Assembly: GCF_011045215.1 (NCBI RefSeq)
Contig: NZ_CP049201.1
Length of the DNA stretch: 64,000 nucleotides
Strand: one strand, 5' to 3'
Source of the DNA: Escherichia coli
GTDB taxonomy: Bacteria; Pseudomonadota; Gammaproteobacteria; Enterobacterales; Enterobacteriaceae
Shown in pieces: positions 38,701 to 44,700 of this stretch; the first letter of the stretch is position 1, and the number at the start of each line of letters is the position of its first letter. The position numbers are program-made.

Positions 38701-41700
38701 TCGTTGGCTCTGCGCTTGGCGCGCTGGTCGGCATAATAATGACCGTTGCAGGCATTTTTACCAGTAAAGCCTCAAAAATACGTAAAGCACAAGGAAAAGT
38801 ACGCGACAGGCTGGAGGAGGTGCGGGATAAATCTCTCGACAGCGTTGTCGATGAAATCCGCCTCCTGGTTGCTGCTATTGAAAAAGAACTTGAGAGTGGC
38901 CTGCTGCAAAAAGTCAACGATATGCAGGTGGCTCTGCAACAGCCTGTTGCCATTTTCGAAACACAAATCAGTCGAATCATAACATTAAAAAAACAACTGG
39001 AGGGCATGCCTAATGGAACAATTCAAACAGTTCAGTATTGAAAAACAGGCTGCGATTAACTCGCTATTACAGTTGCGCGGAATGTTAGAAATGCTGGGAG
39101 AGATGGGGATAAACATCAGCGACGATTTACAAAAAGTCACTTCTGCAATTAATGCCATCGAATCTGATGTCCTGCGTATTGCTCTGTTGGGGGCGTTCTC
39201 CGATGGCAAAACCAGCGTTATCGCCGCATGGCTGGGTAAAGTAATGGATGATATGAATATTTCCATGGATGAGTCCTCCGATCGGTTGAGTATTTACAAA
39301 CCGGAAGGTCTGCCAGACCAGTGTGAAATTGTTGATACGCCCGGGCTGTTTGGTGATAAAGAGCGCGAGGTGGACGGGAGACTGGTGATGTATGAAGACC
39401 TGACCAGACGCTATATATCTGAAGCACACCTGATTTTTTACGTGGTTGATGCCACGAACCCGCTCAAGGAGAGCCACAGCGACATCGTGAAATGGGTATT
39501 GCGCGATTTGAATAAACTTTCTTCAATCATCTTTGTTATCAATAAAATGGATGAAGTGACCAGCCTGACAGATCAGGCACTGTTTGACGAGCAGGCGGCA
39601 ATTAAAAAGGCGAATCTGAAAGGCAAATTGCAACGTGCAGCGGATCTTACCGCTCAGGAGTGTGAGCAGCTAAATATCGTCTGCGTTGCCTCAAACCCAA
39701 ATGGTCGCGGCTTAACGTACTGGTTTACTAAACCCGAACATTACGAAAGTCGTTCGCGCATTAACGATCTTAAAAATGCTGCCACCGAAATACTGAAAAC
39801 TAATGTGCCAGAGGTCTTGTTGGTGAAAACAGGTATGGACGTGGTGAAAGACATTGTCATTCAGCGTATCACCCAGGCCAGCAGACACCTCGATGAACTG
39901 AATACCTTTGTCGAGAAGAATGACGAGGATATGCACCGTTTTAGTAACGACATAAAGCAAAGCCGCATTGAGGTTAAATGGCTGGCTGGAGAATTATTTG
40001 AAGAGCTGAACCTGATGGAAAAACAGCTGATGAGCCAACTGCGTCCACTCGATCTGGACGATATCCGCCCGTTTATGGACGATGAGTTGGGATATACAGA
40101 AGATGGGGTTGGCTTTAAGCTTCACCTGCGCATTAAGCAGTCAGTTGATCGCTTTTTCGAACAGTCGACAGCGGTCTCGCAACGCTTATCTGATGACATT
40201 ACTCGCCAGTTGAGCTCCAGCGAGAGCTTTCTAAGTGGCTTAGGCGAGGGGGCGTTTCGTTCTTTAGGCGGGGCCTTTAAGGGGGTGTCGAAAATTAGTC
40301 CGGCGACGCTCAAAACGACAATTTTGGCCGCACGCGATACGATTGGCAAACTAACGGGATATGTCTATAAATTTAAACCCTGGGAGGCCACCAAACTGGC
40401 CGGAAGTATTGCCAAATGGGCAGGTCCTGTGGGTGCAGCGTTTACGATTGGTTCTGATCTATGGGATGCCTATAAAGCACACGAGCGGGAGCAGGAACTG
40501 AAAGAAGTAAAAGCCTCGCTGGCGAAAATCATTAAAGAGCCGTTTGAAGATATCTATGACGTGCTGAGCTCTGATGAGAAAATGTTCGCCTTTTTTGCAC
40601 CGCAGATCCAACAAATGGAGCAGGTTGTTACTGAGCTGGCAGAGAAAAGTCAGGCTATTCGCGACAACCGGCAGAAACTGAGCCTTATTCAGACGCAGCT
40701 TGCACAACTAATGGTACCTGCCACAGAAAACCATACTGCCAGATAGATGCATAATGCAGTTCCGTACACCTGTGGTTGAATAACAGCAGACTCTTTCATG
40801 ATTATCTGGATTGAAAGAATGTCTGCTGCTTATTATCGGAAATATAACTTACTTAACACATGAGGTATAAATCAGTGAGATTATTGTTAAGGGGCGTTGT
40901 TGGAATGATAATGGTCTGGTTGGTCATTTATTTCGGAATGGAATTACTTTTTATCTCCGATCGGGTTCATCCGGTATTAAGAATAATTGTTGTCCTGGGA
41001 ATGTTATTCCTGATGATAATGATTGCGGGCGGTATGTATCGTTCTCTTTTGTCACGAAAGAAAACATCATGACGTTCCTGTTTACGCCGCTACATTTGTG
41101 GTGGCTTTATGATTGTTCAGAATAATGAATTTACCTGTCGCGGCATGTTCAGCGACCAGCGCCGGACAGAAATATCACTTTCACTCAATTATTATGAAAA
41201 TTAATCTTCCGTTTATACACTGGCCGCGGATTTGCAATGATAAGCGCCTCGTGTTATCTGTGGCTGCCTTTACCCTTTCTAATCTCCTTGTTTCCTCCGG
41301 CGCACATCTGATCTACCGGGTGTTATTCTTTATACTGGCACTTCTTATTATTAAGGCAATGAAATCGCTTACGTTGCGTTTGATTCTGGCCTTTCCGTTC
41401 ACATTACTGACCGCGGCAGATATCAGTATCAGCCTGTATTCATGGTGTACATTTGGCACCACATTCAATGATGGTTTTGCAATCAGTATCCTACAGACAG
41501 ATCCTGATGAAGCAATAAGAATGTTCAGGATGTATGTCGTCTATGTTATTGCGTTTATTATCCTCTTTTTATTGTTCGTCTGTTCAGCAATAAATAAAAC
41601 GTCCTCATTGCCTTCGGGAAAGGTCACGGTAATTACATTTTTATTGTTAATTACAGTAACGTTATATTCTTCCTTTCAGTTTGCGTTGAAGAAACAGTAT

Positions 41701-44700
41701 CAAATAAATGAAGTTGATCCTTACATAGTCGCTTCCCGGTTTGCCACATATACCCCTTTCTTTAATCTGAACTATTTTGCACTGGCCGCAAAGGAGCATC
41801 AGAGATTAATGACGATTGCTGATACCATACCTCACTACGAGCTGATGATTACAGACAATAATATTGATGAATTTGTACTGATCATCGGTGAATCAGCAAG
41901 GACTGATAACATGTCCATTTACGGGTACTCGCGGCCAACCACACCAGAGCTTCAGAAACAGAAATCACGACTGAAACTGTTCACTCAGGCAATCAGCGGG
42001 GCACCTTATACCGCCCTTGCGGTACCGTTGGCATTATCTGCTGATACTGTGCTGCATCATGATGTTCGCCATTACCCCGATAATATTATCAACATGGCGA
42101 ATCAGGCAGGGTTCGATACCTGGTGGCTCAGTGCGCAGTCCGCTTTCCGACAGAACGGAACGGCTGTGGCCAGTATCGCCATGCGGGCCAGAAACAGAAT
42201 TTATGTCAGAGGCTATGATGAGTTGCTGCTCCCGCACCTGGCTGAAGCACTGAACAGTAATCCGGGGTGCAGGAAACTGATTGTTCTGCATCTGACGGGC
42301 AGCCATGAGCCAGTCTGCAGTAACTGGCCCAGAGATAAAGCCGTGTTTAAACCACTGGATACAGAAGAAGTCTGCTACGATAATTCCATTCATTATACCG
42401 ACAGTTTGTTGGGACAGGTTTTCGCCATGCTGGAAACGCGTCGGGCATCCGTCATGTATTTTTCAGATCATGGCCTGGAGTATGACCCGACAAAAGAACA
42501 CGTTTATTTTCATGGCGGAATAAAACCCAGCCAGCAGGCTTATCATGTTCCGATGTTTATCTGGTACAGCCCGGCACTGGGAGAGCATGTCGATCGCCAG
42601 ACGGTGAACAGCGTTTTTTCCACTGCGTATAATGATTATCTGATTAATGCATGGATGGGCGTAACCAGACCGGCTCAACCGAAAACACCAGAGGAGGTGA
42701 TTACCCGCTGGCAGAGGAAATCAGATGTTTTTGATGCAAATCATAACGTGTTTAATTACAAAGCATTACGAAATAGCTTTAAATGAGACACCGGAGTAAT
42801 TTAATCCGCTTCATTACTCTCAAAGAAAAACGACCAGAAGATAATTTTCGGGTAACCACGCCGATAGACGGAAAGTTTAATGCGGTACTGGATTATATTG
42901 TTATGGAAGCCATTCGGGGTTACAGATAAGAGCGATATTAGTGAGGGGTACTACTCGCCGGGGCGGAATTCTTTAATTCCCGACGTTGGTGCTTCATAGT
43001 GCCGGATAAAACGGAATATCACAGGCAATCTGTCTGAAGATATTAATTTTTTGATGGTTAACAGCTGTTTTTTGCATCAAAAAAAGCACTGAAACTGCAG
43101 CTGACCCCGGCTGCAGTATGAAGGCACGATAAGGGATTTTGAGGTCTCCTTCGCGCAAATTAATGCGCCAGTGCTAAATCGGTTCCTATGTTCAGAGTGT
43201 AAAATTCATATATAATGGTTTAAATTTATTAAACAATGACTTCGTTTTAGTGTGATGAAATCAGTTTGTTGTTATGACTGTGATCATCTGTCTGTTTGTT
43301 GTCTTTTATCAGTATCCATAAGGCTGCAGCACCAATCAGGTCAAATACCGCCAGTGCAATAAAGAACGGTCCAAAGCCAATGATACTGACAAATGCACCA
43401 ATGAATAAATTAAAAATCAGCTGGCCAGACCATGCACATGCCCCGGCCATTCCGACAGCCGTTGCGACTTCATTCTTTTTAAACAGGTCTGCACCTAAAG
43501 TTGCAGCAACCGTAGAAAGTAATTGATGTGAGAACCCCCCAATACTGATTAATAAAACAGCAATATAGGGGTTTTCTATGATACTGACCAGACCGATAGT
43601 CGTCATCAGTATTGCACCAATAGTAAAAGTAATACGTCGTGAATTTATTAATGAAATTCCTTTTTCATTGAAGAATTTTGCAACAAATCCACTGGCAAGG
43701 CATCCTAAATCAGCCATGAGGAATGGAAGCCATACAAACATGGCGATTTCTTTCAGGCTGAAATGCAGTGTTTCGACAAAGAAAACAGGCACCCAGAAGT
43801 TAATAGTTCCCCATGCCGGGTCAGCTAAAAAGCGGGAAATACCGATTCCCCAAAAGTTTCTTTGTTTCAGGATGTTGATTACAGATGTTTTTTCTTTTTT
43901 GGCATTGTTCAGATGCTTTTCCTGACCATTTTCAATATATGAACGTTCTTCTGGGGAGAGGCGTTTTGCATCTTTTGGATCTTTATAGAAAATCAGCCAG
44001 ATAAATGCGGCTATTACAGCCAGTATACCAGCCACAATAAAAGCAAATTGCCAGCTGTGGAACATAATGCACCATGCAATCAAAGGCGGGGCTAACATGG
44101 CACCAAATGATGTCCCCATGTTAAATACACCAGTTGCGATGCCTCGTTCTTTTGCCGGAAACCATGTTGAGGCTGTTTTTACGCCCGCCGGAATAGCTGA
44201 AGCTTCACTAACGCCCATGATACCACGCATGAATGCCAGTCCCATCCAGGAGCCAGTCAGGGCGTGTCCCATCGTGGCTAATCCCCAGATAACTGCACAG
44301 ATAAAGAAGCCTAATTTAAGGCCGATATTATCAATAAAGAACCCCATAATTGGTTGACCTATTGTGTACGCCAGCTGGAATACACTTACAATCCAGGAAT
44401 ACTGTTCTTTAGAGATCCCTAAATCTGACATTATGGTTGGTGCCGCAACGCCAAGAGCGGTACGGTCAAGATAGTTAATGATAGTAATGAAACATACGAG
44501 AACAATCATATGCCATCTGTAGTGTTTTATATATTTCATATATACCTCAAATGGTTAAGAAGGAGGCTTACAAGGTCACATGTTGTTCCAGATATTACCC
44601 GTTCCACGTTGTCATGAAAGTGATCAACCTCTTGCTTTTATTGGTTGACCAGTTAGTTGACATTGTTTTACGTATAATTACAAAACCAGTCATTCAGAAT

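What the first reader, a model, noticed from the sequence alone, without database searches (positions are those of the whole stretch)
40860..42786. Island-borne phosphoethanolamine transferase with small membrane partner
A sulfatase-superfamily phosphoethanolamine transferase with an N-terminal multi-TM domain is carried on the island, preceded by a 70-aa membrane protein. Such enzymes modify lipid A or LPS core and can alter polymyxin susceptibility and phage receptor structure. It does not read like MCR-1.
Basis: partly seen in the sequence, partly recalled or inferred. Interest (0 to 1): 0.35.

Follow-up and report, generated by a model that had tools for sequence, protein, structure and literature searches.

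The report
Island copy of YhbX phosphoethanolamine transferase
This is an intact extra copy of the uncharacterised E. coli enzyme YhbX, next to a real but only loosely linked 65-residue membrane protein, on a genomic island beside the pheV tRNA gene; about 8% of E. coli genomes already carry and annotate it, and nothing ties it to lipid A or polymyxin resistance.

Summary
Both ORFs exist. The large one is a sulfatase-superfamily phosphoethanolamine (PEtN) transferase. It has five N-terminal TM helices, a complete catalytic set (E233, T273, H371, D425, H426, H440) and a confident AlphaFold model (pLDDT 93) that superposes on EptC, EptA and MCR-1.

It is not EptA, EptB, EptC, OpgE or MCR. It is 65% identical over its full length to K-12 YhbX, groups with it at 100% bootstrap, and lacks the EptA_B_N domain. 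YhbX has no known substrate.

The likely start is ATG 41194 (530 aa), not TTG 41113. The small ORF most likely starts at GTG 40875 (65 aa, two TM helices). Its Shine-Dalgarno sequence and start codon are conserved in an unrelated upstream context, and dN/dS is about 0.3.

The small ORF precedes 445 of 453 intact copies of the enzyme gene. It also occurs without the enzyme, its alleles follow the upstream gene cassette, and terminator-like hairpins bracket it. It is a frequent neighbour, not a demonstrated partner.

The module sits in the known tia-leoCBA locus on a pheV island. RefSeq already annotates it in about 450 complete E. coli genomes. Verdict: ordinary and already known, with the substrate still open.

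The parts
40875..41072 (+). Predicted two-TM hairpin with N- and C-termini in the cytoplasm: MRLLLRGVVGMIMVWLVIYFGMELLFISDRVHPVLRIIVVLGMLFLMIMIAGGMYRSLLSRKKTS.
   Evidence: ORF. SD GAGGT at 40862-40866 and GTG 40875 read. GTG plus SD are conserved where the upstream DNA is unrelated. Two hydrophobic 19-mers at residues 9-27 and 34-52. dN/dS is 0.28-0.33 between allele types, against 0.68 and 1.6 in the shifted frames. RefSeq lists it as a 'hypothetical protein'. Homologues were found only in E. coli. No Pfam, NCBIfam, PADLOC or PHROG hit.
41086..41105 (+). Terminator-like hairpin GCCGCTAC-ATTT-GTGGTGGC followed by TTTATGATTG, between the small ORF and the enzyme gene.
   Evidence: -13.6 kcal/mol, z = -2.1. 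The sequence is conserved in both island contexts. Function was not tested.
41194..42786 (+). YhbX-family phosphoethanolamine transferase, 530 aa. The maximal ORF starts at TTG 41113 and the PGAP-style start is ATG 41125. Five TM helices are followed by a periplasmic sulfatase-fold domain. Catalytic residues: E233, T273, H371, D425, H426, H440.
   Evidence: dN/dS is 0.10-0.17 among alleles.
40779..40834 (+). Strong stem-loop after the leoA stop codon, followed by CUUAUUAU. Likely the terminator of the leoCBA unit.
   Evidence: -21.5 kcal/mol, z = -4.4. A comparable hairpin ends the alternative upstream cassette in L003.
39013..40746 (+). leoA (dynamin-like GTPase; a component of the Eleos defence system). 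Upstream neighbour, not part of the module.
   Evidence: PADLOC LeoA E=2.5e-286. RefSeq annotation of relatives.
43247..44539 (-). MFS transporter (anion:cation symporter / D-galactonate transporter-like), convergent downstream neighbour. Present in some versions of the island only.
   Evidence: Absent in the ST131 and WCHEC96200 versions.

Best explanation
The large gene is an intact, horizontally carried paralogue of E. coli YhbX. It encodes an inner-membrane enzyme with five TM helices and a periplasmic alkaline-phosphatase/sulfatase-fold domain.

By analogy with the solved enzymes EptA, MCR-1 and EptC, it most likely takes phosphoethanolamine from phosphatidylethanolamine onto Thr273 at a Zn site (E233, D425, H426, with H371 and H440). 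It would then pass it to an acceptor on the periplasmic side.

The acceptor is unknown. Placement outside the lipid A/Kdo clade and next to the OpgE-like and EptC groups makes a non-lipid-A envelope glycan the most likely target: LPS core, O-antigen or a periplasmic glucan. A polymyxin-resistance role is unlikely.

The 65-aa ORF upstream is a real, translated two-TM inner-membrane protein. It marks the right-hand border of a cargo-swapping slot in the island. It is usually, but not always, followed by the transferase, so it is a linked neighbour and not a demonstrated subunit.

Shown: identity, architecture, catalytic residues, phylogeny, distribution. Inferred: catalytic mechanism, type of acceptor, translation of the small ORF.
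For: Identity and phylogeny:
- 65% identity to K-12 YhbX over 511 aa, against 24-30% to EptC, OpgE, EptB and EptA.
- The query+YhbX clade has 100% bootstrap, and the EptA/MCR-1/EptB clade (98.5%) excludes it.
- A 57-sequence tree places it inside a YhbX radiation, with the OpgE-like and EptC groups as the next neighbours.

Domains and residues:
- PF00884 only, no PF08019.
- All NCBIfam equivalog cut-offs are missed by 3- to 25-fold.
- Catalytic residues are invariant or nearly so.
- T273 aligns with Thr280 of N. meningitidis EptA in the 5FGN alignment.

Structure:
- AlphaFold pLDDT 93, pTM 0.91.
- Best structural matches are the EcEptC periplasmic domain (TM 0.77) and full-length EptA and MCR-1 (TM 0.62-0.64).

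Selection and regulation:
- Purifying selection on the enzyme gene, dN/dS 0.10-0.17.
- No PmrA, PhoP or PhoB box upstream.

Small ORF:
- Conserved GTG plus SD across unrelated upstream DNA.
- dN/dS about 0.3 against 0.68 and 1.6 in the shifted frames.
- Present in 534 genomes (530 at 80% coverage or more), the enzyme gene at 80% coverage or more in 453, and the two contiguous in 445.
Against: No member of the YhbX clade has a known substrate (PMC4013655; absent from PMC10525099), so the acceptor is inferred from tree position only. The OpgE-sister node has just 59% support.

Gene neighbourhoods of more distant YhbX relatives are not conserved and give no clue to the substrate.

No sigma-70 promoter was found for either gene, and hairpins flank the small ORF, so expression is unverified.

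The tight adjacency (445 of 453) could still reflect a functional pairing that I cannot exclude.
Confidence: 0.7

Rival explanations
1. It is a lipid A (or Kdo) PEtN transferase that lowers polymyxin susceptibility: a chromosomal-island analogue of EptA or MCR.
For: Same superfamily, same five-TM plus catalytic-domain architecture, and the same catalytic residues as EptA and MCR-1.
Against: Scores are 42-160 bits against cut-offs of 500-1250 for the lipid A transferase and MCR models. There is no PF08019 domain. It is excluded from the EptA/MCR-1/EptB clade at 98.5% bootstrap. No PmrA or PhoP box lies upstream. It is common in ordinary E. coli lineages, including ST131, which are not known to be intrinsically colistin-resistant (own knowledge).
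Confidence: 0.06
2. It is an OpgE-like enzyme that decorates osmoregulated periplasmic glucans and has no LPS activity.
For: The YhbX clade's nearest neighbour is the OpgE-like group (59% bootstrap; same topology). Like OpgE, it lacks PF08019.
Against: Identity to OpgE is only 28% and limited to the catalytic domain. The node is weak. K-12 already has OpgE and YhbX as separate genes, which argues for different acceptors. The protein is not inside the OpgE branch.
Confidence: 0.12
3. The 65-aa protein is an obligate subunit or regulator of the transferase, in the manner of BcsF with BcsG, or of PmrR acting on LpxT.
For: It lies immediately upstream on the same strand in 445 of 453 genomes with an intact enzyme gene. 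It is a membrane protein, like the enzyme's TM domain. The pair travels together in two unrelated upstream contexts and on one plasmid.
Against: The small ORF occurs without the enzyme: alone between IS elements, and followed by an unrelated 160-aa secreted protein after leoA. About 85 of 530 small-ORF genomes lack the contiguous pair. Small-ORF alleles follow the upstream cassette (100/98% against 84% identity), while enzyme alleles are shuffled independently. A terminator-like hairpin separates the two genes. K-12 yhbX and more distant YhbX relatives have no such upstream ORF. There is no similarity to BcsF.
Confidence: 0.2
4. The small ORF is not a gene. It would be a chance open frame in AT-rich intergenic DNA or a regulatory leader region.
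For: No family hit in any library. Homologues occur only in E. coli. Hairpins lie on both sides. PGAP leaves it unannotated in the leo-linked context.
Against: It stays open across about 30 substitutions with no indel. dN/dS is about 0.3 in frame, against 0.68 and 1.6 out of frame. A strong SD plus GTG has been recreated in unrelated upstream sequence. A 56%-identical version keeps the same two-TM layout.
Confidence: 0.1

Closest known systems
YhbX of E. coli K-12 (b3173; 'putative hydrolase / putative transferase YhbX')
   Same: 65% identity over 511 of 530 residues. Same length, same five-TM plus sulfatase-fold architecture, same Pfam profile (PF00884 only), and monophyletic at 100% bootstrap.
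   Different: A different locus: a pheV island downstream of tia-leoCBA, not argG-yhbX-leuU. It is preceded by a 65-aa membrane ORF that K-12 yhbX lacks. It is present in only about 8-9% of complete genomes.
'orf5' of the tia locus / Tia pathogenicity island of ETEC H10407, and the 'phosphoethanolamine transferase' annotated in tia islands at selC, pheU and pheV
   Same: Same gene order tia-leoC-leoB-leoA-(small ORF)-PEtN transferase, at 95-97% DNA identity. Michie et al. note a non-conserved downstream orf5 (PMC4159319). PMC8454413 and PMC6174562 list the transferase in these islands.
   Different: In this window the island sits at pheV, not selC, and leoB carries a nonsense mutation. That orf5 is this gene is inferred from gene order. 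The original 2000 paper could not be read.
EptC/CptA (LPS core heptose I PEtN transferase)
   Same: Best solved-structure match by sequence (5ZZU, E=1.1e-23) and by fold (6A82, TM 0.77). The catalytic residues are shared.
   Different: 24% identity. 146 bits against the 404-bit NCBIfam cut-off. A separate clade.
OpgE (periplasmic-glucan PEtN transferase)
   Same: Nearest characterised clade in the trees. Both lack PF08019.
   Different: 28% identity over the catalytic domain only, with weak node support.
EptA / MCR-1 (lipid A PEtN transferases)
   Same: Whole-length fold match (5FGN and 9NWW, TM 0.62-0.64). The Thr nucleophile and Zn ligands are conserved.
   Different: No EptA_B_N domain, 19-28% identity, excluded from their clade, and far below the model cut-offs.

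Membership tests
Sulfatase/alkaline-phosphatase-superfamily membrane PEtN transferases (EptA-type architecture) | C-terminal sulfatase-fold (PF00884) domain | tested here: met
   PF00884 E=1.6e-49. Fold matches to the EptC, EptA and MCR-1 catalytic domains, TM 0.71-0.78 normalised to target.
Sulfatase/alkaline-phosphatase-superfamily membrane PEtN transferases (EptA-type architecture) | N-terminal domain of five TM helices | tested here: met
   Hydropathy. AlphaFold helices 17-31, 36-55, 59-87, 104-133 and 142-170. Whole-length superposition on 5FGN and 9NWW.
Sulfatase/alkaline-phosphatase-superfamily membrane PEtN transferases (EptA-type architecture) | Catalytic Thr nucleophile plus Zn-binding Glu/Asp/His | tested here: met
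   E233, T273, H371, D425, H426 and H440 are present. They are invariant or at least 90% conserved across 57 sequences. T273 aligns with NmEptA Thr280.
Sulfatase/alkaline-phosphatase-superfamily membrane PEtN transferases (EptA-type architecture) | Demonstrated transfer of PEtN from phosphatidylethanolamine | not testable with these tools
   Needs biochemistry or mass spectrometry.
YhbX clade | Full-length high identity to, and monophyly with, E. coli YhbX | tested here: met
   65% over 511 aa, 721 bits. 100% bootstrap. Clustered with YhbX at the 50% level.
YhbX clade | Orthologous chromosomal position (argG-yhbX-leuU) | tested here: not met
   It lies on a pheV island after leoA, so it is a paralogue or xenologue, not the orthologue.
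EptA / MCR lipid A PEtN transferases | Score above the NCBIfam equivalog or exception cut-offs | tested here: not met
   P_eth_NH2_trans 159.5 against 500. EptA 131 against 561 and 100 against 660. MCR-1 to MCR-13 42-63 against 1075-1250.
EptA / MCR lipid A PEtN transferases | EptA_B_N (PF08019) N-terminal domain | tested here: not met
   Absent in the query. Present in EptA, EptB and MCR-1.
EptA / MCR lipid A PEtN transferases | Confers reduced polymyxin susceptibility / modifies lipid A phosphates | not testable with these tools
   Needs MIC measurement and lipid A mass spectrometry.
EptB (Kdo II PEtN transferase) | NCBIfam NF008593 cut-off and clade membership | tested here: not met
   111 against 493 bits. 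EptB groups with EptA and MCR-1, not with the query.
EptC / CptA (heptose I PEtN transferase) | NCBIfam NF007933 / NF012179 cut-offs and clade membership | tested here: not met
   146 against 404 and 131 against 900 bits. EptC plus the pO157 CptA form their own 100% clade.
OpgE (periplasmic glucan PEtN transferase) | Placement inside the OpgE branch | tested here: not met
   The query+YhbX pair is at most a sister to OpgE plus an Enterobacter plasmid enzyme (59% bootstrap). 28% identity over 312 aa.
Lpt-O/Opt (S. flexneri O-antigen PEtN transferase) | Sequence similarity | tested here: not met
   No significant BLASTP alignment to the pSFxv_2 protein.
BcsF-BcsG type pair (small membrane protein + PEtN transferase) | Homology of either component | tested here: not met
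   Enzyme against BcsG E>5. Small ORF against BcsF gave no alignment. Only the gene layout is similar.

The most novel reading that the evidence does not exclude
The YhbX clade would be a twelfth, still unassigned substrate class of PEtN transferases. The island copy, perhaps together with the two-TM protein, would decorate a surface glycan (LPS core, O-antigen or another envelope polymer). That would change phage adsorption or antigenicity, acting as a receptor-masking module beside a slot that swaps anti-phage systems (Eleos against WYL/PDC-M09A/PDC-M40B).
Probability: 0.12. Interest if true: 0.5.

Novelty: already known. Interest (0 to 1): 0.14.

Why it matters
The practical result is a negative one. 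This common island gene should not be read as a colistin-resistance or lipid A-modifying determinant.

The open question is what YhbX-type enzymes modify. It is a real but modest gap: one of six PEtN-transferase paralogues in E. coli K-12 still has no substrate. An island-borne, variably present copy offers a natural presence/absence contrast for LPS or glucan mass spectrometry and for phage-adsorption tests.

The 65-aa membrane protein is one more conserved but unstudied small protein.

Tried and rejected
- Looked for a homologue of the small ORF upstream of K-12 yhbX and of more distant YhbX relatives. None was found.
- Compared the small ORF with BcsF, and the enzyme with BcsG and with S. 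flexneri Lpt-O/Opt. No similarity.
- Scanned the small ORF against Pfam, NCBIfam, PADLOC and PHROGs. Nothing.
- Looked at the gene neighbourhoods of 44-41%-identical YhbX relatives for a substrate clue such as waa, O-antigen or opg genes. The contexts were unrelated or the contigs too short.
- Searched for PmrA, PhoP, PhoB and sigma-54 sites upstream. None in the window.
- The sigma-70 scan found fewer sites than the shuffled controls, so no promoter could be assigned.
- The literature search for a YhbX function found only strain-construction mentions and annotation lists.
- The original Tia-island paper (PMC97486) is not held.
- The word-indexed homologue search was saturated by E. coli YhbX and gave no intermediate relatives.
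- Rejected TTG 41113 and ATG 41125 as start codons.
- Did not attempt a complex prediction, because the tool returns no interface metrics.

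
Full report
**Observation.** Two same-strand ORFs lie at the reported coordinates: 40860-41072 (70 aa from ATG) and 41113-42786 (557 aa from TTG). The large one hits Pfam Sulfatase (PF00884, E=1.6e-49) and nothing else. Hydropathy gives five N-terminal TM segments. The small one has two strongly hydrophobic 19-mers.

**Start codons.** Both need revising.
- Small ORF. GTG 40875 has a GAGGT Shine-Dalgarno sequence 8 nt upstream. In a second island type the upstream DNA is unrelated, yet GTG and a strong SD (GAAGGAGAGG) are again present and homology begins at the GTG. RefSeq annotates that 65-aa form (WP_001238009, WP_001238004, WP_001238008).
- Enzyme. The alignment to K-12 YhbX starts at residue 19 of a protein beginning at ATG 41194, against YhbX residue 17. 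The 23 codons between the PGAP start (41125) and 41194 differ among alleles almost only by non-synonymous changes. The likely product is therefore 530 aa.

**What the enzyme is.** Every specific NCBIfam model is missed by a wide margin: generic lipid A PEtN transferase 159 against 500 bits, CptA 146 against 404, EptA 131 against 561, EptB 111 against 493, MCR families 42-63 against 1075-1250.

BLASTP against the K-12 paralogues gives YhbX 65% identity over 511 aa (721 bits). The others are far lower: EptC 24%, OpgE 28% (catalytic domain only), EptB 30%, EptA 28%, BcsG nothing, and about 30% to the yjgX pseudogene region.

In a neighbour-joining tree the query and YhbX join at 100% bootstrap. 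EptA, MCR-1 and EptB form a 98.5% clade that excludes them. The YhbX pair is weakly (59%) sister to OpgE plus an Enterobacter small-plasmid enzyme. A 57-sequence tree built from 50%-identity cluster representatives shows the same order: YhbX radiation, then the OpgE-like group, then EptC, then EptA/MCR/EptB.

PF08019 (EptA_B_N) is present in EptA, EptB and MCR-1. It is absent from the query, YhbX, OpgE and the pO157 CptA. There is no similarity to the S. flexneri O-antigen enzyme Lpt-O.

**Catalytic competence.** E233, T273, H371, D425, H426 and H440 are all present and are invariant or at least 90% conserved over 57 sequences. T273 aligns with Thr280 of N. meningitidis EptA in the 5FGN alignment.

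An AlphaFold model built on that alignment has pLDDT 93 and pTM 0.91. Its best solved matches are the E. coli EptC periplasmic domain (TM 0.77 to target) and full-length EptA and MCR-1 (TM 0.62-0.64 over the whole chain). Alleles differ with dN/dS of 0.10-0.17. The gene looks functional.

**Function.** No YhbX-clade member has an assigned substrate.
- Aquilini et al. state that no function is established for YhbX, nor for its P. mirabilis relative PMI3040 (PMC4013655).
- A 2023 review with 11 substrate classes does not mention YhbX (PMC10525099).
- Neighbourhoods of 41-44%-identical relatives are unrelated to one another.
- No PmrA, PhoP or PhoB box lies upstream.

My best inference is a Thr-phosphoethanolamine ping-pong transferase acting on a non-lipid-A envelope glycan. 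That rests on fold and tree position only. Lipid A activity or a polymyxin effect is unlikely.

**The small ORF.** It is most likely a real gene.
- It stays open across about 30 substitutions between allele types.
- dN/dS is 0.28-0.33 in frame, against 0.68 and 1.6 in the shifted frames.
- The two-TM layout with basic termini is kept even in a 56%-identical variant.
- Homologues occur only in E. coli, and no family library recognises it.

**Is it a partner?** Among 5426 complete genomes, the small ORF occurs in 534. The enzyme gene occurs in 512, of which 453 are near full length. The contiguous pair occurs in 445. Nearly every intact enzyme gene therefore has the small ORF in front of it.

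Several observations argue against a functional pairing.
- About 85 small ORFs lack the enzyme. One stands alone between IS elements. In another island type it follows leoA and precedes an unrelated 160-aa secreted protein.
- Small-ORF alleles follow the upstream cassette: 100% and 98% identity in leo-linked islands against 84% in the other type. Enzyme alleles are shuffled independently.
- A strong hairpin follows leoA (-21.5 kcal/mol, z = -4.4). A second terminator-like hairpin (41086-41105) separates the small ORF from the enzyme gene.
- K-12 yhbX and distant relatives have no such ORF, and it does not resemble BcsF.

I read it as a border gene of a recombining slot that is physically linked to the transferase, not as a demonstrated subunit.

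**Context.** The window's right part is a pheV island. In order it carries:
- a type I restriction-modification set (25136-31182);
- tia (35591-36346);
- leoC, leoB and leoA;
- the small ORF and the transferase;
- an MFS transporter, with a diguanylate cyclase, a TPR protein and an HTH protein further on by annotation transfer from a 98.6%-identical relative;
- an integrase ORF (52422-53633), tRNA-Phe (53780-53855), then yqgA-speC.

The same tia-leoCBA-transferase block sits at selC in ST131 and ETEC lineages. It corresponds to the published tia locus, where a non-conserved downstream 'orf5' is noted (PMC4159319). Island surveys already list a phosphoethanolamine transferase there (PMC8454413; PMC6174562).

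**Verdict.** This is an already annotated, fairly common (about 8%) E. coli accessory gene: a YhbX paralogue with an adjacent small membrane protein. The functional hint about lipid A and polymyxin is not supported. What remains open is the substrate of the whole YhbX clade.

Noticed in passing
window 37326-39041 (stop codon at 38040-38042): leoB is interrupted by an in-frame TAG where strain JNU has CAG (Gln239). There are only 4 nt differences over 1716 nt. The LeoABC/Eleos dynamin-like system is therefore probably inactive in this strain.
   Followed up: yes
window ~36400-40870, compared with L003 3959-7601 and L004 3956-7598: The stretch between the Tia/Hra-type outer-membrane protein gene and the small ORF looks like a cargo-swapping slot. 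It holds leoCBA (PADLOC Eleos) here. In roughly 460 other genomes, judged from the count of the alternative small-ORF allele, it holds a WYL regulator plus proteins matching the PADLOC candidates PDC-M09A and PDC-M40B. One of those is annotated 'ATP--cob(I)alamin adenosyltransferase', which is probably a misnomer.
   Followed up: partly
window 42676-42773: About 1500 complete E. coli genomes keep only a 98-bp remnant (83-86% identity) of the 3' end of a YhbX-like gene. It lies next to the TPR-like gene, integrase and tRNA-Phe backbone at pheV, often beside IS1, and is annotated as part of a 'hypothetical protein'.
   Followed up: partly
L019 (plasmid CP057032.1, pRHB40-C01_2) 188-9759: The block small ORF - transferase - MFS - EcsC - GGDEF - TPR also occurs, at 96% protein identity, on one 62-kb non-mobilizable E. 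coli plasmid. It is the only plasmid copy among 72,556 plasmids.
   Followed up: no
window 41125-41193: RefSeq/PGAP starts the transferase 23 codons upstream of the start supported by homology. That segment evolves as if non-coding, with nearly all changes non-synonymous.
   Followed up: yes
window 1-12000: The left part of the window carries type VI secretion genes (tssA, tssF, tssG), a 3'-5' exonuclease and a GIY-YIG nuclease. This comes from annotation of 97%-identical genomes. The left edge of the island is beyond the window.
   Followed up: no
window 25136-31182: A complete-looking type I restriction-modification set: HsdM-like (544 aa), HsdS-like (375 aa) and a 1093-aa helicase/ResIII subunit. 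A 5'-nucleotidase-family ORF follows at 33098-33733.
   Followed up: no
L012-L015 (6284-6766 in L012): In a rare pheV island variant, leoA and a 56%-identical small ORF are followed by a 160-aa signal-peptide protein with no family hit, in place of the transferase.
   Followed up: partly
window 41194-42786 (protein level): The enzyme matches two PHROG families of unknown function (phrog_24438 E=5.8e-41; phrog_11670 E=6.7e-24), so related PEtN-transferase-like proteins are encoded by phages or prophages.
   Followed up: no
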